The notes under the pieces are model-generated. The model was not told the origin of the DNA, did not search any database, and saw only the letters and a program-made list of their open reading frames with translations. A stretch of DNA of 9,662 nt from a virus (Duplodnaviria > Heunggongvirae > Uroviricota > Caudoviricetes): the IMG/VR virus record IMGVR_UViG_2826321507_000003. One strand, 5' to 3'. The position numbers and the translations under genes were made by a program. Positions 478-9,662 of the stretch are shown here, in pieces (the first letter of the stretch is position 1; every line of letters starts with the position of its first letter).

Positions 478-492
478 NNNNNNNNNNNNNNN
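478..492. other. Run of 15 ambiguous bases (N): assembly gap or masked sequence of unknown true length
   Basis: Directly visible in the sequence. Reading frames cannot be trusted across it. Confidence 0.99.
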
Positions 493-712: not shown

Positions 713-911
713 GAGGTTGCCCCGTATTCAGTGTCGCTGATTTGTATTGTCTGAAGTTGTTTTTACGTTAAGTTGATGCAGATCAATTAATACGATACCT
801 GCGTCATAATTGATTATTTGACGTAGTTTGATGGCGTAGATGCACGTTGTGACATGTAGATGATAATTATTATCATTTTGCGGGTCCTTTCCGGCGATCC
901 GACAGGTTACG

Positions 912-923
912 GGGCGGCGACCT
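912..923 (+). other. cosN: 12-nt cohesive-end sequence GGGCGGCGACCT, terminase nicking site
   Basis: The 12-mer is an exact match to the lambda cohesive end. The flanks (...GTCCTTTCCGG[C]GATCCGACAGGTTACG upstream and CGCGG(T)TTTTC(A)CTATTTATGAAAATTTT downstream) are nearly identical to the lambda right and left genome ends as I recall them. Confidence 0.85.
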
Positions 924-956
924 CGCGGTTTTTCACTATTTATGAAAATTTTTCAG

Positions 957-1073
957 GGAAAATCGTGTCGGTACTTCTCGAATATAACTTTTTGTTTTTT
1001 TTAATATTGCATCCGTAAAGGTCCGACATGAAAGTGTCCGAAAATGCCTTTTTCTGGCGTTTTCATGTCGGGC
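957..1073 (+). promoter_or_regulatory. cosB-like terminase small-subunit binding region with three R-site-like repeats (R3-like about 961-973, R2-like 1021-1033 inverted, R1-like 1061-1073) and an AT-rich bendable spacer
   Basis: Three copies of a shared core occur here: aaTCGTGTCGGta, the inverted GTCCGACATGAAA (reverse complement TTTCATGTCGGAC), and tTTCATGTCGGgc. They lie at about +49, +109 and +149 from cosN, with nu1 starting at +188. This mirrors lambda R3-I1-R2-R1 spacing and orientation. A T-rich tract at 990-1010 sits where the IHF site I1 would be. Confidence 0.6.
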
Positions 1074-1099
1074 CTTGTATTTGATAATGGGTTGTTTTC

Positions 1100-1648
1100 A
1101 TGAAGGTTAATAAAAAGAGGCTTGCCGAAATTTTCAACGTGGACCCGCGGACGATTGAACGCTGGCAGTCTCAGGGACTCCCTTGCGCCTCCAAAGGTAG
1201 TAAGGGCATTGAATCTGTATTTGATACTGCCATGGCAATTCAGTGGTATGCGCAGAGGGAAACTGATATCGAAAACGAAAAGCTCCGCAAAGAACTGGAC
1301 GATTTGCGTGCGGCAGCGGAGTCAGATTTACAACCCGGCACCATTGACTATGAACGCTACCGGCTCACAAAAGTGCAGGCAGATGCGCAGGAACTGAAAA
1401 ATGCCCGTGAAGACGGAGTAGTGCTGGAAACTGAACTGTTTACCTTCATTCTGCAACGTGTGGCACAGGAGATTTCGGGGATACTTGTGCGTGTGCCGTT
1501 GACATTACAGCGTAAATATCCGGACATTTCACCATCACACCTTGATGTGGTGAAAACTGAAATCGCGAAAGCCTCCAATGTTTCAGCTAAGGCCGGTGAA
1601 AACGTGGGCGGATGGATCGATGATTTCAGACGCGCAGAAGGCAGCTAA
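1100..1648 (+). CDS. nu1: Terminase small subunit (gpNu1-like), 182 aa
   Basis: The N-terminus [23 protein letters not shown] (winged-HTH region) and the run ENEKLRKEL...[14 protein letters not shown]...AQELKNARE are collinear with lambda Nu1 (181 aa). Position right after cos is as expected. Confidence 0.95.
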
Positions 1649-3548
1649 TGCAGCCGGTGCGATAGCTACAGGGCTTTTATCTCTCATTATTCCTGTTCCA
1701 CTGACGACAGTTCAGTGGGCCAATAAACATTATTACCTTCCTAAAGAGTCGTCTTATACCCCGGGGCGGTGGGAAACACTGCCGTTTCAGGTTGGCATCA
1801 TGAACTGTATGGGCAACGATCTGATTCGCACGGTTAACCTGATTAAATCTGCCCGTGTTGGTTATACAAAGATGTTGCTGGGAGTGGAGGCTTATTTTAT
1901 TGAGCATAAATCACGCAACAGCCTTCTTTTTCAGCCCACGGACTCAGCTGCTGAAGATTTTATGAAATCTCATGTTGAGCCAACGATAAGGGATGTTCCT
2001 GCATTGCTGGAGCTGGCTCCATGGTTCGGAAGAAAACACCGCGATAATACGCTCACCCTGAAGCGTTTTTCCTCCGGTGTGGGGTTCTGGTGTCTGGGTG
2101 GTGCGGCAGCAAAAAACTACCGTGAAAAATCCGTGGATGTGGTCTGTTATGACGAGCTTTCCTCGTTCGAACCGGATGTTGAAAAAGAGGGTTCGCCAAC
2201 CCTGCTGGGGGATAAACGTATTGAGGGCTCTGTATGGCCAAAATCCATTCGCGGCTCGACGCCTAAAATCAAAGGCTCCTGCCAGATCGAAAAAGCCGCT
2301 AACGAGTCGGCACACTTCATGCGTTTTTATGTGCCCTGTCCGCACTGTGGGGAGGAGCAGTATCTGAAATTTGGCGATGATGCCTCGCCTTTCGGTCTTA
2401 AGTGGGAGAAGAATAAGCCAGAAAGTGTTTTCTACCTTTGTGAGCATCATGGCTGTGTGATCCATCAGTCTGAGCTTGACCAGAGTAACGGGCGGTGGAT
2501 CTGTGAAAACACGGGCATGTGGACCCGTGACGGCCTGATGTTTTTCAGCGCCCGGGGTGATGAAATTCCGCCGCCGCGCTCCATCACTTTCCATATCTGG
2601 ACGGCGTACAGTCCGTTCACCACCTGGGTACAGATTGTCTATGACTGGCTGGATGCACTGAAAGATCCCAACGGCCTGAAAACCTTTGTGAACACCACGC
2701 TGGGCGAGACCTGGGAAGAGGCCGTGGGCGAAAAACTCGATCACCAGGTACTGATGGATAAGGTTGTGCGTTACACGACGGCGGTGCCTGCCCGGGTGGT
2801 TTATCTGACGGCGGGCATTGACTCGCAGCGAAACCGTTTTGAGATGTATGTCTGGGGATGGGCTCCGGGAGAGGAAGCCTTTCTGGTGGATAAAATCATC
2901 ATTATGGGGCGTCCCGATGAGGAAGAGACGCTATTACGTGTGGATGCGGCGATCAACAAAAAATACCGCCATGCAGACGGAACCGAAATGACTATTTCCC
3001 GTGTCTGCTGGGACATCGGGGGGATTGATGGCGAAATCGTTTATCAGAGGTCAAAAAAACACGGTGTTTTCCGGGTGCTGCCGGTAAAAGGCGCATCTGT
3101 CTATGGCAAGCCGGTGATCACCATGCCAAAAACCCGCAATCAGCGGGGCGTGTATCTGTGTGAAGTGGGGACGGACACCGCAAAAGAAATTCTCTATGCC
3201 CGTATGAAAGCCGATCCCACGCCTGTGGATGAAGCCACGTCGTATGCCATCCGTTTTCCTGATGATCCGGAGATTTTTTCGCAGACAGAGGCGCAGCAAC
3301 TGGTGGCGGAAGAGCTTGTGGAGAAGTGGGAAAAAGGAAAGATGCGTCTGCTGTGGGATAACAAAAAGCGGCGTAACGAAGCGCTGGACTGCCTGGTGTA
3401 TGCCTACGCGGCATTACGTGTGTCCGTGCAACGCTGGCAGCTTGATCTGGCTGTACTGGCAAAATCCCGGGAAGAAGAGACGACCCGGCCAACCCTTAAA
3501 GAACTGGCAGCGAAGCTGTCCGGAGGAGTGAATGGTTACAGTCGCTGA
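1620..3548 (+). CDS. A: Terminase large subunit (gpA-like: ATPase/translocase plus nuclease), about 642 aa
   Basis: Collinear with lambda gpA (641 aa) over its full length. Shared motifs include [22 protein letters not shown](T)[48 protein letters not shown] and [11 protein letters not shown] chose the ATG at 1620 over the ORF-track start at 1578 because it gives a lambda-like length and an overlap of about 29 nt with nu1. Confidence 0.93.
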
Positions 3549-3738
3549 ACTGCAGGCGCTGCGTCAGGCGCGCCTTGATTTATTAACCGGTAAACGGGTG
3601 GTGTCTGTCCAGAAAGATGGTCGCAGAATTGAATATACGGCAGCTTCTCTGGATGAGCTTAACCGGGCGATCAATGATGCGGAGTCGGTACTGGGGACAA
3701 CCCGCCGTCGCCGTCGTCCGCTGGGAGTGAGGTTATGA
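3532..3738 (+). CDS. W: Head completion / DNA-stabilisation protein (gpW-like), 68 aa
   Basis: Same 68-aa length as lambda W, with the conserved TGKRVVSVQKDGRRIEYTAAS and RRRR core. GGAGG lies 5 nt upstream of the ATG. The gene overlaps the 3' end of A. Confidence 0.9.
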   Translation: MVTVAELQALRQARLDLLTGKRVVSVQKDGRRIEYTAASLDELNRAINDAESVLGTTRRRRRPLGVRL

Positions 3739-5327
3739 AACGAACGCCTGTCCTGATTGATGTGAACGGCGTTCCGCTTCGGGAGAGCCTCAGCTACACC
3801 GGTGGCGGTGCAGGATTTGGCGGGCAAATGGCAGAGTGGTTGCCACCCTCGCAGAGTGCCGATGCGGCCCTGCTGCCCGCGTTGCGTCTGGGGAATGCCC
3901 GTGCAGATGATCTGGTGCGCAATAACGGAATAGCGGCCAATGCGGTGGCACTGCATAAGGATCACATTGTCGGGCATATGTTTCTGATTAGCTACCGTCC
4001 GAACTGGCGCTGGCTGGGGATGCGGGAGACCGCGGCAAAAAGTTTTGTCGATGAGGTGGAGGCGGCCTGGTCAGAATACGCAGAAGGGATGTTTGGTGAG
4101 ATCGACGTGGAAGGGAAACGCACGTTTACGGAATTTATCCGTGAAGGTGTGGGCGTTCATGCGTTTAACGGCGAAATCTTTGTGCAGCCGGTCTGGGATA
4201 CGGAGAGTACGCAACTGTTTCGTACGCGTTTTAAAGCCGTGAGTCCGAAACGGGTGGACACGCCAGGACACGGTATGGGGAACCGTTTTCTGCGGGCTGG
4301 TGTGGAGGTTGATCGATATGGCCGTGCCGTTGCGTACCATATCTGTGAGGATGATTTTCCTCGCTCCGGGAGTGGACGATGGGAACGGATCCCGCGTGAA
4401 CTACCCACCGGGCGTCCGGCCATGCTGCATATTTTCGAGCCGGTGGAGGACGGGCAGACCCGTGGAGCCAATCAGTTTTACAGCGTTATGGAACGGCTGA
4501 AGATGCTGGATTCCCTGCAGGCAACACAGCTTCAGTCGGCCATAGTGAAGGCGATGTATGCAGCGACGATTGAAAGTGACCTTGATACCGAAAAGGCCTT
4601 TGAATATATCGCCGGTGCGCCGCAGGGGCAGAAGGATAATCCGCTTATTAATATTCTGGATAAGTTCTCCACCTGGTATGACACGAATAGCGTGACGCTG
4701 GGCGGTGTCAAAATTCCGCACCTTTTCCCCGGTGATGATCTGAAACTTCAGACCGCGCAGGATTCAGACAATGGATTTTCGGCGCTTGAACAGGCGCTGC
4801 TGCGGTATATCGCCGCCGGTCTTGGCGTTTCCTACGAACAGTTGTCCCGTGATTACTCGAAGGTCAGTTATTCAAGTGCCCGCGCATCCGCCAATGAGTC
4901 GTGGCGCTATTTTATGGGGCGGCGAAAATTTATTGCGTCCCGGCTGGCCACGCAGATGTTTTCCTGCTGGCTGGAAGAGGCACTTCTTCGGGGGATTATT
5001 CGTCCGCCACGGGCACGTTTTGATTTTTATCAGGCGCGATCAGCCTGGTCACGGGCTGAGTGGATTGGAGCCGGAAGAATGGCCATTGACGGGCTCAAGG
5101 AGGTTCAGGAATCAGTGATGCGCATTGAGGCCGGACTGAGCACGTATGAGAAAGAGCTGGCGCTGATGGGCGAGGATTATCAGGACATTTTCCGCCAGCA
5201 GGTCAGGGAATCTGCAGAGCGGGAAAAAGCCGGACTCTCACGTCCGGTGTGGATAGCGCAGGCGTATCAGCAGCAGATAGCGGAGAGTCGCAGGCCGGAA
5301 GAGGAGACAACACCACGTGAGACGTAA
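3735..5327 (+). CDS. B: Portal protein (gpB-like), 530 aa
   Basis: Collinear with lambda gpB (533 aa). Shared motifs include GNARADDLVRNNG, HAFNGE(I/L)FVQ, FEPVEDGQTRGAN, LQSAIVKAMYAATIES, LLRYIAAGLGVSYEQLSR and GRMAIDGLKEVQE. There is an ATGA start/stop overlap with W. Confidence 0.95.
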   Translation: MKRTPVLIDVNGVPLRESLSYTGGGAGFGGQMAEWLPPSQSADAALLPALRLGNARADDLVRNNGIAANAVALHKDHIVGHMFLISYRPNWRWLGMRETAAKSFVDEVEAAWSEYAEGMFGEIDVEGKRTFTEFIREGVGVHAFNGEIFVQPVWDTESTQLFRTRFKAVSPKRVDTPGHGMGNRFLRAGVEVDRYGRAVAYHICEDDFPRSGSGRWERIPRELPTGRPAMLHIFEPVEDGQTRGANQFYSVMERLKMLDSLQATQLQSAIVKAMYAATIESDLDTEKAFEYIAGAPQGQKDNPLINILDKFSTWYDTNSVTLGGVKIPHLFPGDDLKLQTAQDSDNGFSALEQALLRYIAAGLGVSYEQLSRDYSKVSYSSARASANESWRYFMGRRKFIASRLATQMFSCWLEEALLRGIIRPPRARFDFYQARSAWSRAEWIGAGRMAIDGLKEVQESVMRIEAGLSTYEKELALMGEDYQDIFRQQVRESAEREKAGLSRPVWIAQAYQQQIAESRRPEEETTPRET

Positions 5328-6822
5328 TCTTTCACACATTATTGCCGCAGCATTCAATGAACCGCTGCTTCTGGAGCCCGCCTATGCGCGGGTTTTCTTT
5401 TGCGCGCTCGGGCGCGAGATGGGCGCAGCAAGTCTTTCGGTACCACAACAGCAGGTACAGCTTGATGCTCCCGGAATGCTGGCTGAAACGGACGAGTACA
5501 TGGCCGGAGGTAAACGACCGGCCCGTGTTTACCGGGTGGTGAACGGTATTGCGGTACTGCCGGTGACCGGCACGCTGGTGCACCGGCTGGGGGGGATGCG
5601 GCCATTTTCCGGAATGACTGGCTATGACGGCATTGTCGCCTGTCTTCAGCAGGCAATGGCAGATAGCCAGGTGCGGGGCATACTGCTGGACATTGACAGT
5701 CCGGGTGGGCAGGCCGCCGGCGCGTTTGACTGCGCTGACATGATTTACCGCCTCCGTCAGCAGAAGCCGGTCTGGGCACTGTGCAATGACACGGCCTGTT
5801 CTGCAGCCATGCTGCTGGCGTCGGCCTGCTCCCGACGGCTGGTTACCCAGACATCCCGTATCGGCTCCATTGGCGTGATGATGAGCCATGTCAGCTATGC
5901 CGGTCATCTGGCGCAGGCCGGTGTGGATATCACGCTGATTTATGCCGGGGCGCACAAGGTGGATGGCAATCAGTTTGAAGCGTTGCCGGCAGAGGTTCGC
6001 CAGGATATGCAGCAGCGGATTGATGCGGCGCACCGGATGTTTGCCGAAAAAGTGGCGATGTATACCGGGTTGTCTGTGGATGCGGTCACGGGAACAGAGG
6101 CCGCCGTTTTTGAAGGTCAGTCCGGCATTGAGGCCGGGCTGGCGGATGAATTAATCAATGCGTCGGATGCCATCAGTGTGATGGCCACGGCGCTGAACAG
6201 TAATGTCAGAGGAGGCACTATGCCGCAATTAACTGCAACGGAAGCCGCCGTGCAGGAGAACCAGCGAGTGATGGGGATCCTGACATGCCAGGAAGCGAAA
6301 GGACGTGAACAGCTTGCCACGATGCTGGCAGGGCAACAGGGCATGAGCGTTGAACAGGCCCGGGCGATTCTGGCCGCGGCGGCACCGCAGCAGCCGGTGG
6401 CATCCGCGCAGAGTGAAGCCGATCGCATTATGGCGTGTGAAGAAGCGAACGGTCGTGAACAACTGGCAGCAACGCTGGCGGCGATGCCGGAGATGACGGT
6501 GGAAAAAGCCCGCCCGATCCTGGCTGCTTCACCGCAGGCGAATGCCGGACCATCACTCCGTGATCAGATCATGGCACTGGATGAGGCAAAAGGGGCTGAG
6601 GCGCAGGCTGAACAGCTGGCTGCCTGCCCGGGAATGACCGTGGAGAGCGCCCGGGCTGTGCTGGCTGCGGGATCAGGTAAGGCAGAACCGGTCTCTGCAT
6701 CCACAACCGCCCTGTTTGAACATTTCATGGCGAATCATTCACCGGCAGCGGTGCGGGGTGGCGTGTCACAGACGTCAGCAGACGGTGATGCGGACGTGAA
6801 AATGCTCATGGCCATGCCATGA
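5317..6822 (+). CDS. C: Head maturation protease / scaffold fusion (gpC-like, S49 peptidase family), 501 aa, GTG start
   Basis: The N-terminal two-thirds is collinear with lambda gpC (AFNEPLLLEPAYARVFFCAL, GMTGY, GAFDCAD, KPVWAL, RRLVTQT, GSIGVMM, ITLIYAG, HKVDGN, GLADEL). GTG at 5317 is preceded by GAGGAG. It is longer than lambda C (439 aa) because of an expanded C-terminal repeat region. Confidence 0.9.
   Translation: MRRNLSHIIAAAFNEPLLLEPAYARVFFCALGREMGAASLSVPQQQVQLDAPGMLAETDEYMAGGKRPARVYRVVNGIAVLPVTGTLVHRLGGMRPFSGMTGYDGIVACLQQAMADSQVRGILLDIDSPGGQAAGAFDCADMIYRLRQQKPVWALCNDTACSAAMLLASACSRRLVTQTSRIGSIGVMMSHVSYAGHLAQAGVDITLIYAGAHKVDGNQFEALPAEVRQDMQQRIDAAHRMFAEKVAMYTGLSVDAVTGTEAAVFEGQSGIEAGLADELINASDAISVMATALNSNVRGGTMPQLTATEAAVQENQRVMGILTCQEAKGREQLATMLAGQQGMSVEQARAILAAAAPQQPVASAQSEADRIMACEEANGREQLAATLAAMPEMTVEKARPILAASPQANAGPSLRDQIMALDEAKGAEAQAEQLAACPGMTVESARAVLAAGSGKAEPVSASTTALFEHFMANHSPAAVRGGVSQTSADGDADVKMLMAMP
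6220..6822 (+). CDS. nu3: Nu3-like scaffolding protein from an in-frame internal start within C (nested gene), about 200 aa
   Basis: An internal ATG at 6220 is in the C frame and preceded by GAGGAGG (6209-6215). It lies at the position equivalent to the recalled lambda segment GGRMTKETQ. The downstream sequence carries the Nu3-type motif IMGIL.C.EA.GRE. The start assignment is inferred, not proven. Confidence 0.55.
   Translation: MPQLTATEAAVQENQRVMGILTCQEAKGREQLATMLAGQQGMSVEQARAILAAAAPQQPVASAQSEADRIMACEEANGREQLAATLAAMPEMTVEKARPILAASPQANAGPSLRDQIMALDEAKGAEAQAEQLAACPGMTVESARAVLAAGSGKAEPVSASTTALFEHFMANHSPAAVRGGVSQTSADGDADVKMLMAMP
6262..6678 (+). repeat. Three tandem, diverged copies (each about 40-45 codons) of the scaffold motif within the C/nu3 C-terminus
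   Basis: Unit 1 is about 6262-6390 (QRVMGILTCQEAKGREQLATMLAGQQGMSVEQARAILAAAAPQ). Unit 2 is about 6421-6537 (DRIMACEEANGREQLAATLAAMPEMTVEKARPILAASPQ). Unit 3 is about 6559-6678 (DQIMALDEAKGAEAQAEQLAACPGMTVESARAVLAAGSG). DNA similarity between units is partial (for example ATGAGCGTTGAACAGGCCCGGGCGATTCTGGC versus ATGACGGTGGAAAAAGCCCGCCCGATCCTGGC versus ATGACCGTGGAGAGCGCCCGGGCTGTGCTGGC). Confidence 0.7.
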
Positions 6823-6858
6823 AGTCAGTGCTGAACATCAATACGAGGTTTTAACAAT

Positions 6859-7206
6859 ATGGTGACGAAAACCATCACTGAACAGCGTGCGGAAGTACGT
6901 ATTTTTGCCGGTAATGATCCGGCTCACACCGCCACAGGCAGCAGCGGGATTTCCTCGGCAACACCGGCACTGACACCCCTGATGCTGGATGGGGCCACCG
7001 GGAAACTGGTGGTCTGGGATGGACAGAAAGCCGGTAGTGCGGTTGGCATACTGGTACTGCCGCTTGAAGGCACAGAGGCGGTGCTGACGTATTACAAGTC
7101 GGGGACCTTTGCGACGGAGGCAATCCGCTGGCCTGACAGTGTGGATGAACACAAAAAGGCAAATGCCTTTGCCGGCACCGCCCTGAGTCACGCGGCGCTG
7201 CCGTAA
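6859..7206 (+). CDS. D: Head decoration protein (gpD-like), 115 aa
   Basis: Shared motifs with lambda gpD (110 aa): DPAHTAT, TPLMLD, KLV(A/V)WDG, AVGIL, YKSGTF and AFAGTA. Confidence 0.92.
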   Translation: MVTKTITEQRAEVRIFAGNDPAHTATGSSGISSATPALTPLMLDGATGKLVVWDGQKAGSAVGILVLPLEGTEAVLTYYKSGTFATEAIRWPDSVDEHKKANAFAGTALSHAALP

Positions 7207-7213
7207 CACGTTA

Positions 7214-7235
7214 TCAGGCCACCGCGTTGGCCTGA
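7214..7235 (+). terminator. Stem-loop between D and E (8-bp stem TCAGGCCA/TGGCCTGA, 6-nt loop) with a weak T-rich tail; possible partial terminator or mRNA-stability hairpin
   Basis: Perfect inverted repeat seen at 7214-7221 and 7228-7235. The downstream tract (CTGATTTCTT) is only moderately U-rich. I recall a hairpin in the equivalent D-E intergenic position in lambda. Confidence 0.4.
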
Positions 7236-7263
7236 CTGATTTCTTAATGAAAGGAACTGATTT

Positions 7264-8292
7264 ATGGGATTGTTTACGACCCGCCAGTTACTCGGTTATA
7301 CCGAACAAAAAGTTAAATTCCGTGCGCTGTTTCTGGAGCTGTTTTTCCGCCGTACGGTGAATTTCCACACCGAAGAGGTGATGCTGGACAAAATTACCGG
7401 AAAAACGCCGGTGGCGGCCTATGTCTCCCCGATCGTTGAAGGAAAAGTGCTTCGCCATCGCGGTGGTGAAACCCGCGTGTTACGTCCGGGCTACGTCAAG
7501 CCCAAACACGAATTTAATTACCAGCAGGCGGTTGAGCGCCTTCCTGGTGAAGATCCGGCTCAGCTGAACGACCCGGCCTACCGTCGTCTGCGTATCATTA
7601 CCGATAACCTCAAACAGGAAGAGCACGCCATTGTCCAGGTGGAAGAAATGCAGGCGGTGAATGCCGTGCTGTATGGCAAATACACCATGGAAGGGGATCA
7701 GTTTGATACTGTCGAGGTGGATTTCGGGCGCTCTGAAGGAAATAACATTGAGCTGGCTGACGGTAAAAAATGGTCTGAGCAGGACCGTGATACGTTTGAT
7801 CCGACGCATGATATTGACCTCTACTGCGATCAGGCCAGCGGCCTTGTGAATATCGCCATTATGGACGGTACGGTCTGGCGTCTGCTGAATGGCTTTAAGC
7901 TGTTCCGCGAAAAACTGGATACCCGTCGCGGCTCAAATTCACAACTCGAAACGGCAGTGAAAGACCTGGGGGCGGTGGTGTCCTTCAAGGGGTATTACGG
8001 CGATCTGGCCATTGTGGTGGCGAAAACGTCTTATGTGGCAGAGGACGGTACCGAAAAACGTTATCTGCCGGAGGGCACACTGGTCCTGGGGAATACGGCA
8101 GCAGAGGGCATTCGTTGCTATGGTGCCATTCAGGATGCGCAGGCGTTGTCCGAAGGTGTGGTGGCCTCTTCCCGTTATCCGAAACACTGGCTGACTGTGG
8201 GCGATCCGGCCCGTGAATTCACCATGACGCAGTCCGCACCGCTGATGGTGCTGCCGGATCCGGATGAGTTTGTGGTGGTACAGGTGAAATAA
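7264..8292 (+). CDS. E: Major capsid protein (gpE-like, HK97-fold), 342 aa
   Basis: Collinear with lambda gpE (341 aa). Shared motifs include YVSPIV.G.V.R.RGG, PGYVKPKHE, DPAYRR.RII, VEEMQAV.AVL.GKYTM, KLDTRRGSNS.LETAVKDLG, VLGNT, RYPK.W and GDPAREFTM.QSAPLM.L.DPDEFV.VQ. AAGGA lies 9 nt upstream of the ATG. Confidence 0.95.
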   Translation: MGLFTTRQLLGYTEQKVKFRALFLELFFRRTVNFHTEEVMLDKITGKTPVAAYVSPIVEGKVLRHRGGETRVLRPGYVKPKHEFNYQQAVERLPGEDPAQLNDPAYRRLRIITDNLKQEEHAIVQVEEMQAVNAVLYGKYTMEGDQFDTVEVDFGRSEGNNIELADGKKWSEQDRDTFDPTHDIDLYCDQASGLVNIAIMDGTVWRLLNGFKLFREKLDTRRGSNSQLETAVKDLGAVVSFKGYYGDLAIVVAKTSYVAEDGTEKRYLPEGTLVLGNTAAEGIRCYGAIQDAQALSEGVVASSRYPKHWLTVGDPAREFTMTQSAPLMVLPDPDEFVVVQVK

Positions 8293-8300
8293 TCCGTGAG

Positions 8301-8330
8301 CGGGGGCGAAATGCCCCCGTGTCTTTTTTC
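8301..8330 (+). terminator. Intrinsic-terminator-like hairpin after E (7-bp GC stem CGGGGGC/GCCCCCG, 5-nt loop GAAAT, followed by TGTCTTTTTTC)
   Basis: Perfect GC-rich inverted repeat at 8301-8307 and 8313-8319, followed by a run of 6 T. It sits between the E stop (8292) and the FI ribosome-binding site (AGGAGG, 8333-8338). Confidence 0.6.
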
Positions 8331-8343
8331 ACAGGAGGCTGAG

Positions 8344-8727
8344 ATGGCAACAAAAGAAGAAAATCTGAATCGTCTTCGTCAACTGGCTGGCCTGCTGGGG
8401 CGCGAGGCGGATATGTCGGGGAGTGCTGCGGATATTGCTCAACGTGTGTCTGAGTGGGAAGAGGAGCTTGCTGTTTCCCCGGAGGGCATTATGCACTCTG
8501 ATGAGAGCGGGGCTGATCAAAATCACACAGACGATGGTGAGCAGTTGAACAACACGGATGCTACGGATGATGTTAAAGCGGTCCGTGTGCGGAAATGCCT
8601 GCATGTGATGGGGTATTGCCCGGAGACAGGCCGTCCCGTTGAACTGACGTACCGGGGCATGCGTGTTATGGTGCCATCACCACTGGCGACAGCCATGATA
8701 CAGCACGGAACGGCTGAGCATGCGTGA
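8344..8727 (+). CDS. FI: DNA-packaging accessory protein (gpFI-like), about 127 aa
   Basis: Position between E and FII. ATG at 8344 with AGGAGG 5 nt upstream. The N-terminal helical segment (NLNRLRQLAGLLGRE...AADIAQRVSEWEEEL) resembles the lambda FI N-terminus, followed by an acidic linker and a C-terminal domain. The ORF-track start at 8296 is a GTG inside the terminator hairpin and is rejected. Confidence 0.75.
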   Translation: MATKEENLNRLRQLAGLLGREADMSGSAADIAQRVSEWEEELAVSPEGIMHSDESGADQNHTDDGEQLNNTDATDDVKAVRVRKCLHVMGYCPETGRPVELTYRGMRVMVPSPLATAMIQHGTAEHA

Positions 8728-9073
8728 TTTTCAGAATGCCTTTGATGCTGCCCTTGCCGGGGTGGACAGCACGATTGTTGAAGTGATGGGGCTCTGTGCG
8801 CAGTTCACCTCGGGAGCACAGCGTGGAAGCGAAGTTCAGGGGGTTTTTGACGATCCGGAGTCGCTGGGTTTTGCCGGTGGCGGGGGCCGTATTGAAGGAA
8901 GCAGCCCGTCATTATTTGTGCGGACGGATACGGTGCGTGCCGTGCGGCGTGGTGACACGCTGACCATTAACGGCGAGATGTTCTGGGTGGATCGTATTTC
9001 TCCGGATGACGGGGGCAGCTGTTATCTCTGGCTCAACCGTGGTCAACCACCCGCAGTTAACCGGCGACGATAA
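8720..9073 (+). CDS. FII: Head-tail joining protein (gpFII-like), 117 aa
   Basis: Same length as lambda FII. Shared motifs: FDAA, GVFDDPE, GSSPSLFVRTD.VR..RRGDTLTI, FWVDR.SPDDGGSC.LWL.RG.PPAVNRRR. Overlaps the FI stop by 8 nt. Confidence 0.92.
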   Translation: MRDFQNAFDAALAGVDSTIVEVMGLCAQFTSGAQRGSEVQGVFDDPESLGFAGGGGRIEGSSPSLFVRTDTVRAVRRGDTLTINGEMFWVDRISPDDGGSCYLWLNRGQPPAVNRRR

Positions 9074-9088
9074 ACGCAGGGTGAAATT

Positions 9089-9622
9089 ATGGCGATAAAA
9101 GGGCTTGATCAGGCGATTGACAATCTGAGCCGGGTTCGTAAAAACGCCATTCCGGCGGCTTCAGCAATGGCCATTAACCGCGTGGCCACAACGGCGATTA
9201 ATCAGTCTTCATCACAGGTTGCCCGGGAGACAAAGGTTCGCCGGAAACTGGTTAAGGAACGGTCCAGACTGAAACGGGCGACGGTCAGAAATCCGAATGC
9301 CAGAATTATCGTTAACCGCGGTGATCTCCCTGTGATTAAGCTGGGGATCAGGATGCTGGGGCGTCGCCCGAACAGCATACTTAAAGCCGGTCAGCATCGG
9401 TATCAGCGGGCATTTATTCAGCGATTAAAAAATGGTCGCTGGCATGTCATGCAGCGTGTGGCCGGGAAAAACCGTTACCCCATTGATGTGGTGAAAATCC
9501 CGATGGCGGCCCCACTGAAACAGGCATTTGATGAGAATGTTGACCGTATCCGGCGTGAACGCCTGCCTAAAGAACTGGCATACGCGCTGAAACAACAACT
9601 GAGGATTGCAATAAAACGATGA
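9089..9622 (+). CDS. Z: Tail completion protein (gpZ-like), 177 aa
   Basis: The N-terminus MAIKGLDQAIDNLSRV...AMAINRVA...SQVARETKVRRKLVKER.RLKRATV.NP.ARI.VNRGDLPVIKLG and the C-terminus AFIQ.LKNGRWHVMQRVAGKNRYPIDVVKIPMA.PL...RIRRERLPKEL.YAL..QLR..IKR match lambda Z as recalled. Confidence 0.9.
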   Translation: MAIKGLDQAIDNLSRVRKNAIPAASAMAINRVATTAINQSSSQVARETKVRRKLVKERSRLKRATVRNPNARIIVNRGDLPVIKLGIRMLGRRPNSILKAGQHRYQRAFIQRLKNGRWHVMQRVAGKNRYPIDVVKIPMAAPLKQAFDENVDRIRRERLPKELAYALKQQLRIAIKR

Positions 9623-9662
9623 AACACACTGACATTCGTGCCGCAGTGCTGGATGCACTCGA
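9619..9662 (+). CDS. U: Tail terminator protein (gpU-like), 5' end only, truncated by window edge
   Basis: ATG at 9619 overlaps the Z stop (ATGA). The translation MKHTDIRAAVLDAL matches the lambda U N-terminus (MKHTELRAAVLDAL). Confidence 0.8.
   Translation, partial: MKHTDIRAAVLDAL

What the first reader, a model, noticed from the sequence alone, without database searches (positions are those of the whole stretch)
957..1073. cosB with three R-site-like repeats of altered sequence: predicted change in terminase DNA-binding specificity
Three copies of a core (T)CRTGTCGG occur at lambda-like positions and orientations (R3-like direct, R2-like inverted, R1-like direct, with an AT-rich spacer where IHF site I1 would be). 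The core differs from the lambda R-site core (CGTTTCC-type as I recall). Together with the diverged Nu1 N-terminal HTH, this suggests a packaging specificity distinct from lambda despite the identical cosN, as with phage 21 versus lambda.
Basis: partly seen in the sequence, partly recalled or inferred. Interest (0 to 1): 0.5.

Follow-up and report, generated by a model that had tools for sequence, protein, structure and literature searches.

The report
Phage 21 cosB packaging site
The three repeats are real, but they are the known terminase-binding sites (cosB R3, R2, R1) of the classic lambdoid phage 21, base-for-base identical here, so the "predicted" change in packaging specificity was shown experimentally decades ago.

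Summary
CRTGTCGG occurs three times in the 9.7-kb window, at 964 (+), 1023 (-) and 1064 (+), and nowhere else. In 20,000 simulated sequences, only 2 had three copies within 110 bp.

Window 912-1099, from cosN to the terminase small-subunit start codon, is 100% identical to phage 21 (M81255, OL657228). Those records already annotate R3 (961-976), IHF site I1 (985-997), inverted R2 (1018-1033) and R1 (1061-1077).

The downstream protein is 180/182 identical to phage 21 gp1. Its DNA-binding domain is 54/54 identical to solved structure 7LWR, and the whole protein is 52% identical to lambda Nu1.

R3 differs from lambda's at bp 51, 52, 56, 59 and 62. Published genetics (PMC4669245) names bp 56 and 59, with TerS residues 20 and 24, as the determinants of lambda/21 discrimination of more than 1000-fold despite identical cosQ and cosN.

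The cores persist in diverged relatives. About 600 of 5,426 complete E. coli genomes carry this cosB type.

Verdict: already known, low interest.

The parts
882..888 (+). cosQ (GGGTCCT), the packaging-termination subsite, 30 bp upstream of the first base of the cohesive end.
   Evidence: Read directly from the sequence. It lies inside the 'R4' terminase site annotated in M81255 at 136-147, which maps to window 881-892. The exact 7-bp lambda cosQ coordinates are from my own knowledge. [quoted passage not shown]
912..923 (+). cosN, the 12-nt cohesive-end sequence GGGCGGCGACCT where terminase makes its staggered nicks.
   Evidence: Identical to lambda bp 1-12 and phage 21 bp 1-12. Annotated in OL657228 at 1-12.
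941..955 (+). I2, an IHF-like site in the cosN-cosB spacer.
   Evidence: Annotated in M81255 at 196-210; the offset to window coordinates is +745. The sequence here is identical to phage 21.
961..976 (+). R3 (AATCGTGTCGGTACTT), the critical TerS-binding site, at bp 50-65 of the phage chromosome.
   Evidence: Annotated in OL657228 at 50-65 and in M81255 at 216-231. The core was found at 964-971. Across 22 other distinct variants of this region from related phages and prophages, only 1 of the 8 core columns varies, a G/A change.
985..997 (-). [quoted passage not shown]
   Evidence: It matches 12 of 13 positions of WATCAANNNNTTR. It is annotated as cosB I1 in OL657228 at 74-86. It aligns with lambda's I1.
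1018..1033 (-). R2 (TTTCATGTCGGACCTT on the minus strand), a TerS-binding site inverted relative to R3 and R1.
   Evidence: Found by the motif searches. Annotated in OL657228 at 107-122 and in M81255 at 273-288.
1061..1077 (+). R1 (TTTCATGTCGGGCCTT), a TerS-binding site.
   Evidence: Found by the motif searches. Annotated in OL657228 at 150-166 and in M81255 at 316-331.
1083..1097 (+). I0, an IHF-like site overlapping the ribosome-binding site of gene 1 (RBS at 1089-1092).
   Evidence: Annotated in M81255 at 338-352. A 12/13 consensus match lies at 1085-1097 on the minus strand. The RBS is annotated in OL657228 at 178-181.
1100..1648 (+). Gene 1, the terminase small subunit (TerS, a Nu1 homolog of 182 aa). 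[quoted passage not shown]
   Evidence: It is 180/182 identical to phage 21 gp1 and 52% identical to lambda Nu1. It matches Pfam Phage_Nu1 at E = 1.8e-80. Residues 1-54 are 100% identical to PDB 7LWR, and the protein is homologous to the lambda Nu1 DNA-binding domain 1J9I.
1620..3548 (+). Gene 2, the terminase large subunit (TerL, a gpA homolog). It overlaps the end of gene 1.
   Evidence: It matches Pfam GpA_ATPase and GpA_nuclease. It is annotated in OL657228 at 709-2637.

Best explanation
Window 957-1077 is cosB of a phage 21-type lambdoid prophage, the site where DNA packaging starts.

Mechanism, established for phage 21 and lambda and inferred here from sequence identity:
- IHF bends the DNA at I1 so that R3 and the inverted R2 face each other and can be bridged by a TerS dimer.
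- The bound TerS anchors the large subunit (gene 2) on the adjacent cosN (912-923). The large subunit then makes the staggered nicks and starts translocating DNA into the prohead.

The R cores read C(G/A)TGTCGG where lambda has CGTTTCC, that is G rather than T at bp 56 and G rather than C at bp 59. The recognition helix has E20/S24 where lambda has Q20/E24. Terminase of this element should therefore package its own DNA and 21-specific DNA but not lambda DNA, and lambda terminase should not package this DNA, even though cosQ and cosN are shared.
For: Identity with phage 21 (shown here):
- Window 912-1099 is 100% identical to the phage 21 records.
- Those records annotate R3, I1, R2 and R1 at the corresponding positions.
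- TerS is 180/182 identical to 21 gp1, and both substitutions (A93V, A162S) lie outside the DNA-binding domain.
- The DNA-binding domain is 54/54 identical to PDB 7LWR, and the protein matches Pfam Phage_Nu1.

The repeats (shown here):
- The three cores are clustered and non-random.
- The alignment with lambda puts R3 at the same bp 50-65, with differences at bp 51, 52, 56, 59 and 62.

Conservation (shown here):
- The R cores are kept while the spacers diverge in phage IdasGreatGrand (about 84% identical over the aligned part of the query) and in a prophage of E. coli P393-F10 (about 80% identical); both are aligned.
- Among 22 other distinct cosN-to-start-codon variants, taken from IMG/VR loci plus those two relatives, variation falls mainly in the spacers.
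- R core type tracks the recognition helix. Lambda and phi80 have CGTTTCC with RTIQNWQE; 21-type elements have CATGTCGG with RTIERWQS/T.

Literature:
- R3 bp 56 and 59 and TerS residues 20 and 24 are the recognition and discrimination determinants (PMC4669245).
- The cosB architecture R3-I1-R2-R1 and the IHF hairpin model are described in PMC9026076.
Against: Nothing found here contradicts this explanation. The limits are these:
- Binding and packaging were not tested for this particular element. Function is inferred from identity to phage 21.
- The IHF consensus match is not statistically significant on its own.
- The rest of the element is mosaic relative to phage 21: 96.6% identical up to 8465, then diverged. 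The window also carries a run of N at 478-492. Whether the prophage is active is therefore unknown.
Confidence: 0.97

Rival explanations
1. The R2/R1 inverted repeat is primarily an RNA element. It would form a long hairpin in the late transcript upstream of gene 1, acting on transcript stability, termination or TerS translation, rather than serving as protein-binding DNA sites.
For: Window 1018-1076 folds as RNA into a 26-pair hairpin of -35.5 kcal/mol, with z = -7.6 against shuffles. The dyad extends beyond the 16-bp R sites to 27-nt arms. A weak terminator-like match lies at 1053-1072.
Against: A consensus fold of seven cosB sequences (21-type variants, lambda, phi80) gives a covariation term of 0.08. 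Many pairs in the spacer part of the stem are broken. The 'both sides changed' pairs sit in the R cores and simply reflect the concerted lambda/21 core switch. R3 carries the same motif with no partner arm. The hairpin ends 13 nt before the RBS and does not sequester it. No U-run follows the stem. The genetics cited assign the R sites to TerS binding.
Confidence: 0.03
2. The site is an intact sequence relic in a defective or cryptic prophage. The repeats would then no longer serve any packaging function in this genome.
For: The window comes from an integrated or mosaic lambdoid element, not from phage 21 itself. The best complete E. coli genome match is 97.5% identical, and identity to phage 21 drops after 8465. 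A run of N at 478-492 interrupts the lysis region. Lambdoid prophage remnants are very common: 5158 of 5426 genomes match some part of the window.
Against: All head and terminase ORFs in the window are full length and in the phage 21 order. cosQ, cosN and cosB carry no mutation relative to a viable phage. An identical TerS occurs on a 52.7-kb IMG/VR viral contig. This reading concerns the activity of the element, not the identity of the site.
Confidence: 0.1
3. The three 8-mers are a chance cluster.
For: The degenerate 8-mer is expected about 0.8 times per window, and 6 of 200 shuffles gave three or more matches somewhere in the window.
Against: Only 2 of 20,000 simulations put three matches within 110 bp. 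The repeats extend to 16-28 bp. They are conserved in diverged relatives. They coincide with annotated, genetically studied sites.
Confidence: 0

Closest known systems
cosB of Escherichia phage 21 (cosB-21), with gp1 TerS
   Same: It is the same thing. The nucleotide sequence from cosN to the gene 1 start is 100% identical. R3, I1, R2 and R1 lie at the same coordinates. The TerS DNA-binding domain is identical.
   Different: TerS has two substitutions outside the DNA-binding domain, A93V and A162S. There are a few substitutions upstream of cosN. The downstream head genes are 96.6% identical, and the FI/FII/Z region is mosaic.
cosB of phage lambda, with Nu1
   Same: The architecture and spacing match: R3 at bp 50-65, an IHF site I1, inverted R2, R1, then the TerS gene at about bp 190. 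cosQ and cosN are identical. TerS is homologous, 52% identical.
   Different: The R core is CGTTTCC in lambda and C(G/A)TGTCGG here, with R3 differences at bp 51, 52, 56, 59 and 62. The recognition helix has Q20/E24 in lambda and E20/S24 here. The published mutual discrimination is more than 10^3-fold.
cosB of phage phi80
   Same: It has a complex cosB with three R-type sequences and the same overall layout.
   Different: phi80 carries lambda-type cores (CGTTTCC) and a lambda-type helix (RTIQNWQ), so it falls in the lambda class, not the 21 class.
Simple cosB of phage N15, and the cos sites of Gram-negative PICIs (Rpp-redirected)
   Same: The critical R3-type site is at a similar distance from cosN and is read by a winged-HTH protein of the Nu1 type.
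   Different: Those sites have a single R sequence with no I1, R2 or R1. The window has the full tripartite site.

Membership tests
Lambda-like complex cosB (R3-I1-R2-R1) | Three related R sequences, with R2 inverted relative to R3 and R1. | tested here: met
   The cores lie at 964 (+), 1023 (-) and 1064 (+). The R2 and R1 16-mers match at 15 of 16 positions.
Lambda-like complex cosB (R3-I1-R2-R1) | [quoted passage not shown] | tested here: met
   cosN is at 912-923 and is identical to lambda's. R3 at 961-976 corresponds to bp 50-65.
Lambda-like complex cosB (R3-I1-R2-R1) | An IHF binding site (I1) lies between R3 and R2. | tested here: inconclusive
   A 12/13 consensus match lies at 985-997 (-), at the position homologous to lambda's I1, and is annotated as I1 in phage 21. 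The pattern match alone is at chance level. IHF binding cannot be tested with these tools.
Lambda-like complex cosB (R3-I1-R2-R1) | It lies immediately upstream of a Nu1-family TerS gene with an N-terminal winged HTH, followed by a gpA-family TerL gene. | tested here: met
   Pfam Phage_Nu1 at E = 1.8e-80, plus GpA_ATPase and GpA_nuclease. PDB matches 1J9I and 7LWR.
Phage 21 packaging-specificity class (cosB-21 / TerS-21) | R3 has G-C at bp 56 and at bp 59; lambda has T-A at bp 56 and C-G at bp 59. | tested here: met
   Window 967 is G and window 970 is G. Lambda has T and C at those positions. Their role as determinants is stated in PMC4669245.
Phage 21 packaging-specificity class (cosB-21 / TerS-21) | The TerS recognition helix is of the 21 type at residues 20 and 24. 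| tested here: met
   The helix reads RTIERWQS, with E20 and S24. Residues 1-92 are identical to 21 gp1. Residues 1-54 are identical to 7LWR. Lambda has Q20 and E24.
Phage 21 packaging-specificity class (cosB-21 / TerS-21) | Functional discrimination: packaged by 21-specific terminase and not by lambda-specific terminase. | not testable with these tools
   Published for the identical sequence (PMC4669245). Not measured for this element.
Lambda packaging-specificity class (cosB-lambda) | The R cores read CGTTTCC. | tested here: not met
   The window has CGTGTCG and CATGTCG at all three sites.
N15-type simple cosB | A single R3 with no IHF site and no R2 or R1 between cosN and the TerS gene. | tested here: not met
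   Three R sites and the I1 spacer are present.

The most novel reading that the evidence does not exclude
The TerS recognition unit may be larger than the annotated 16-bp R box.

All three R elements here share a distal TTTTC tract 9 bp upstream of the TC.TGTCGG core. Taken as 28-mers, they are invariant at 17 of 28 positions. Lambda's R elements carry an equivalent T-rich distal part.

This tract could be the unmapped minor-groove or wing (Lys35) contact, or a bendability element. Alternatively, the 27-nt-arm R2-R1 dyad could have a second role as an RNA hairpin in the gene 1 leader.

Either reading would refine the model of a classic system. Neither would reveal a new one.
Probability: 0.12. 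Interest if true: 0.25.

Novelty: already known. Interest (0 to 1): 0.06.

Why it matters
It matters little as a discovery. The lambda/21 cosB-TerS pair is the textbook example of how two phages with identical cutting sites keep separate packaging specificities, and this window simply carries the phage 21 allele.

It has three practical uses:
- It identifies the window as the cos-terminase-head region of a 21-type lambdoid prophage.
- It fixes the virion chromosome end at 912.
- It shows that the 21 specificity class is common, present in about 11% of complete E. coli genomes. That bears on which helper phages could mobilise cos-carrying islands or cosmids.

Tried and rejected
RNA hairpin reading of the R2-R1 dyad:
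- The single-sequence fold is strong.
- The seven-sequence consensus fold shows no covariation support, so I rejected it as the primary function.

Terminator or promoter reading:
- Only weak consensus matches were found, close to the number seen in shuffles.

IHF consensus scan:
- It finds the expected I1 and I0 positions, but the number of matches in the window equals chance. It is supportive only through positional homology.

- It returned almost only lambda itself, much of it contaminant lambda DNA in unrelated assemblies.
- It returned one Providencia relative with too little upstream sequence.
- It therefore added little comparative depth.

The viral-contig scan:
- It returned only relatives with at least 92% identical TerS.
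- Conservation evidence across deeper divergence rests on two sequences, IdasGreatGrand and the P393-F10 prophage.

Other dead ends:
- A literature search for PDB 7LWR found no describing paper in the library. Its identity with phage 21 gp1 rests on sequence alone.
- Three scripts failed: one on time, one on the N run in the window, one on a missing file. Searches printed their first results before failing, and those are cited. The significance simulation, which failed, was rerun successfully.

Full report
**Observation.**
- The window around the finding reads as a lambdoid cos region.
- The degenerate core CRTGTCGG occurs exactly three times in the 9662-bp window: 964-971 (+), 1023-1030 (-) and 1064-1071 (+). 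It occurs nowhere else.
- Chance expectation is about 0.8 copies per window. Only 2 of 20,000 first-order Markov simulations placed three copies within 110 bp.
R2 and R1 are 16-mers, TTTCATGTCGG(A/G)CCTT, identical at 15 of 16 positions. They lie within a dyad with 27-nt arms.
- The AT-rich spacer holds a 12/13 match to the IHF consensus at 985-997 (-). The pattern by itself is at chance frequency in the window.
The stated range clips the last 3-4 bp of R1.

**Identity.**
- A megablast of 860-1660 against phage records hits Escherichia phage 21 at 99-99.6% (M81255, X02501, OL657228).
- From the first base of the cohesive end (912) to the start codon of the small terminase gene (1100), the window is 100% identical to both phage 21 records.
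- Phage 21 bp n corresponds to window n+911.
- The phage 21 records already annotate cosN 1-12, R3 50-65, I1 74-86, R2 107-122 (inverted) and R1 150-166. They also annotate gene 1 at 189-737 and gene 2 at 709-2637.
- In window coordinates these are cosN 912-923, R3 961-976, I1 985-997, R2 1018-1033 and R1 1061-1077. Gene 1 is at 1100-1648 and gene 2 at 1620-3548.
- M81255 adds I2 (941-955), I0 (1083-1097) and an upstream 'R4' (881-892). 'R4' contains GGGTCCT, which I recognise from my own knowledge as cosQ.

**The protein.**
- ORF 1100-1648 is 180/182 identical to phage 21 gp1. Both substitutions (A93V, A162S) lie outside the N-terminal domain.
- It is 52% identical to lambda Nu1.
- It matches Pfam Phage_Nu1 at E = 1.8e-80. 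The next ORF has the gpA ATPase and nuclease domains.
- Residues 1-54 are 100% identical to a solved structure, 7LWR, named 'Terminase, small subunit'. The domain is homologous to the lambda Nu1 DNA-binding domain 1J9I.
- The recognition helix reads RTIERWQS here and RTIQNWQE in lambda. It differs at residues 20, 21 and 24.

**Comparison with lambda.**
- In a gap-free stretch of the alignment, R3 sits at bp 50-65 in both phages.
- It reads AATCGTGTCGGTACTT here and AGGCGTTTCCGTTCTT in lambda. The differences are at bp 51, 52, 56, 59 and 62.
- The same paper states that bp 56 and 59 of R3 and TerS residues 20 and 24 are the recognition and discrimination determinants. It adds that Glu24 of lambda TerS clashes with the G-C pair at bp 56 of R3-21.
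- PMC9026076 summarises the R3-I1-R2-R1 architecture. It also gives the model in which IHF bends I1 so that a TerS dimer bridges R3 and R2 and anchors TerL on cosN.
- The 'predicted change in specificity' is thus an established experimental result for this exact sequence.

**Conservation.**
- The 21-type cosB is common. The 188-bp cosN-cosB segment is found at 80% coverage or more in 602 of 5,426 complete E. coli genomes, mostly at 99% identity or higher.
- 74 of 80 IMG/VR loci that encode a TerS at least 92% identical carry the 12-nt cohesive-end sequence upstream of the TerS gene.
- Among 22 other distinct cosN-to-start-codon variants, the R3 core varies only by the G/A already allowed in the motif. 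Variable columns concentrate in the R3-R2 spacer, the R2-R1 spacer and the R1-to-ATG segment.
- Two relatives are more diverged: phage IdasGreatGrand (about 84% identical over the aligned part of the query) and a prophage of E. coli P393-F10 (about 80% identical). In both, CATGTCGG is retained at R3 and R1 while the flanks drift. R2 is retained in IdasGreatGrand and partly degraded in P393-F10. Both keep the RTIERWQ(S/T) helix.
- phi80 has CGTTTCC cores and a lambda-type helix. Core type and helix type therefore track each other across these few lineages.

**Rival readings.**
- The R2-R1 dyad folds strongly as RNA: -35.5 kcal/mol, z = -7.6.
- A seven-sequence consensus fold gives essentially no covariation term (0.08), with many broken pairs in the spacer part. 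The double changes lie in the R cores, as expected if binding sites switch in concert.
- The hairpin does not cover the RBS and no U-run follows it. Promoter and terminator scans give only weak matches, close to the number seen in shuffles.
- I therefore treat the dyad as a consequence of two inverted, extended R elements.
- Whether this particular prophage is active cannot be decided here. That question does not bear on what the site is.

**Context.**
- The window is the standard lambdoid late-region order: end of a lysis gene, cosQ-cosN-cosB, TerS, TerL, head-tail joining protein, portal, S49 protease/scaffold, decoration protein, major capsid, FI, FII, Z.
- It is not phage 21 itself. Identity is 96.6% over 912-8465. 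There is no alignment over 8466-8706, and identity is 78% over 8707-9659.
- The best complete E. coli genome hit is 97.5% identical.

**Verdict.** The feature is the archetypal phage 21 cosB, already annotated in GenBank and genetically dissected. Novelty is 'already known' and interest is low.

Noticed in passing
window 949-976, 1018-1045 (-), 1049-1076: The three R elements resemble each other beyond the annotated 16-mers. In register, the 28-mers are TTTTTCAGGGAAAATCGTGTCGGTACTT (R3), TTTTTCTGGCGTTTTCATGTCGGGCCTT (R1) and ATTTTCGGACACTTTCATGTCGGACCTT (R2, reverse complement). They are invariant at 17 of 28 positions, including a distal TTTTC. Lambda's R elements have an equivalent T-rich distal part. 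The spacing between tract and core varies by one base either way in the P393-F10 prophage.
   Followed up: partly
window 1018-1076: The R2-R1 dyad has 27-nt arms that are 81% complementary. It folds as RNA at -35.5 kcal/mol (z = -7.6). A seven-sequence consensus fold gives no covariation support.
   Followed up: yes
window 478-492: A run of 15 N (masked bases or an assembly gap) lies inside the region just downstream of the lysis gene, within ORF 384-740.
   Followed up: no
window 8466-9659: There is a mosaic junction relative to phage 21. Identity is 96.6% up to 8465. Nothing aligns over 8466-8706, inside the FI-like ORF 8296-8727. Identity is only 78% over FII and Z (8707-9659).
   Followed up: partly
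window 860-1018: A 52-aa ORF runs across cosQ, cosN and R3. The equivalent stretch is annotated 'hypothetical protein' in several phage and E. coli records. It is probably a spurious gene call over the cos site.
   Followed up: no
loci L010-L017, L020, L024, L025, L027, L029-L031, L035: Genome assemblies of unrelated bacteria contain the left end of phage lambda at 99.3-100% identity. They include Kitasatospora, Bradyrhizobium, Paenibacillus, Shewanella, Pseudomonas, Oceanobacillus, Psychrobacter and Chromatium. Some copies sit on contigs of about 48.4-48.5 kb. This is almost certainly lambda control-DNA contamination.
   Followed up: yes
locus L008 1-296 (Providencia alcalifaciens DSM 30120): A TerS whose DNA-binding domain is 71% identical has a third helix variant (RTITAWQS). 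Its upstream sequence has GAAAGGAAGTGAT and ATCCTTTCT motifs in place of either the lambda or the 21 core. This may be another specificity class. Only 92 bp of upstream sequence was available.
   Followed up: no
window 1620-1648: The TerS stop and the TerL start overlap by 29 nt, the same arrangement as Nu1/A in lambda.
   Followed up: no
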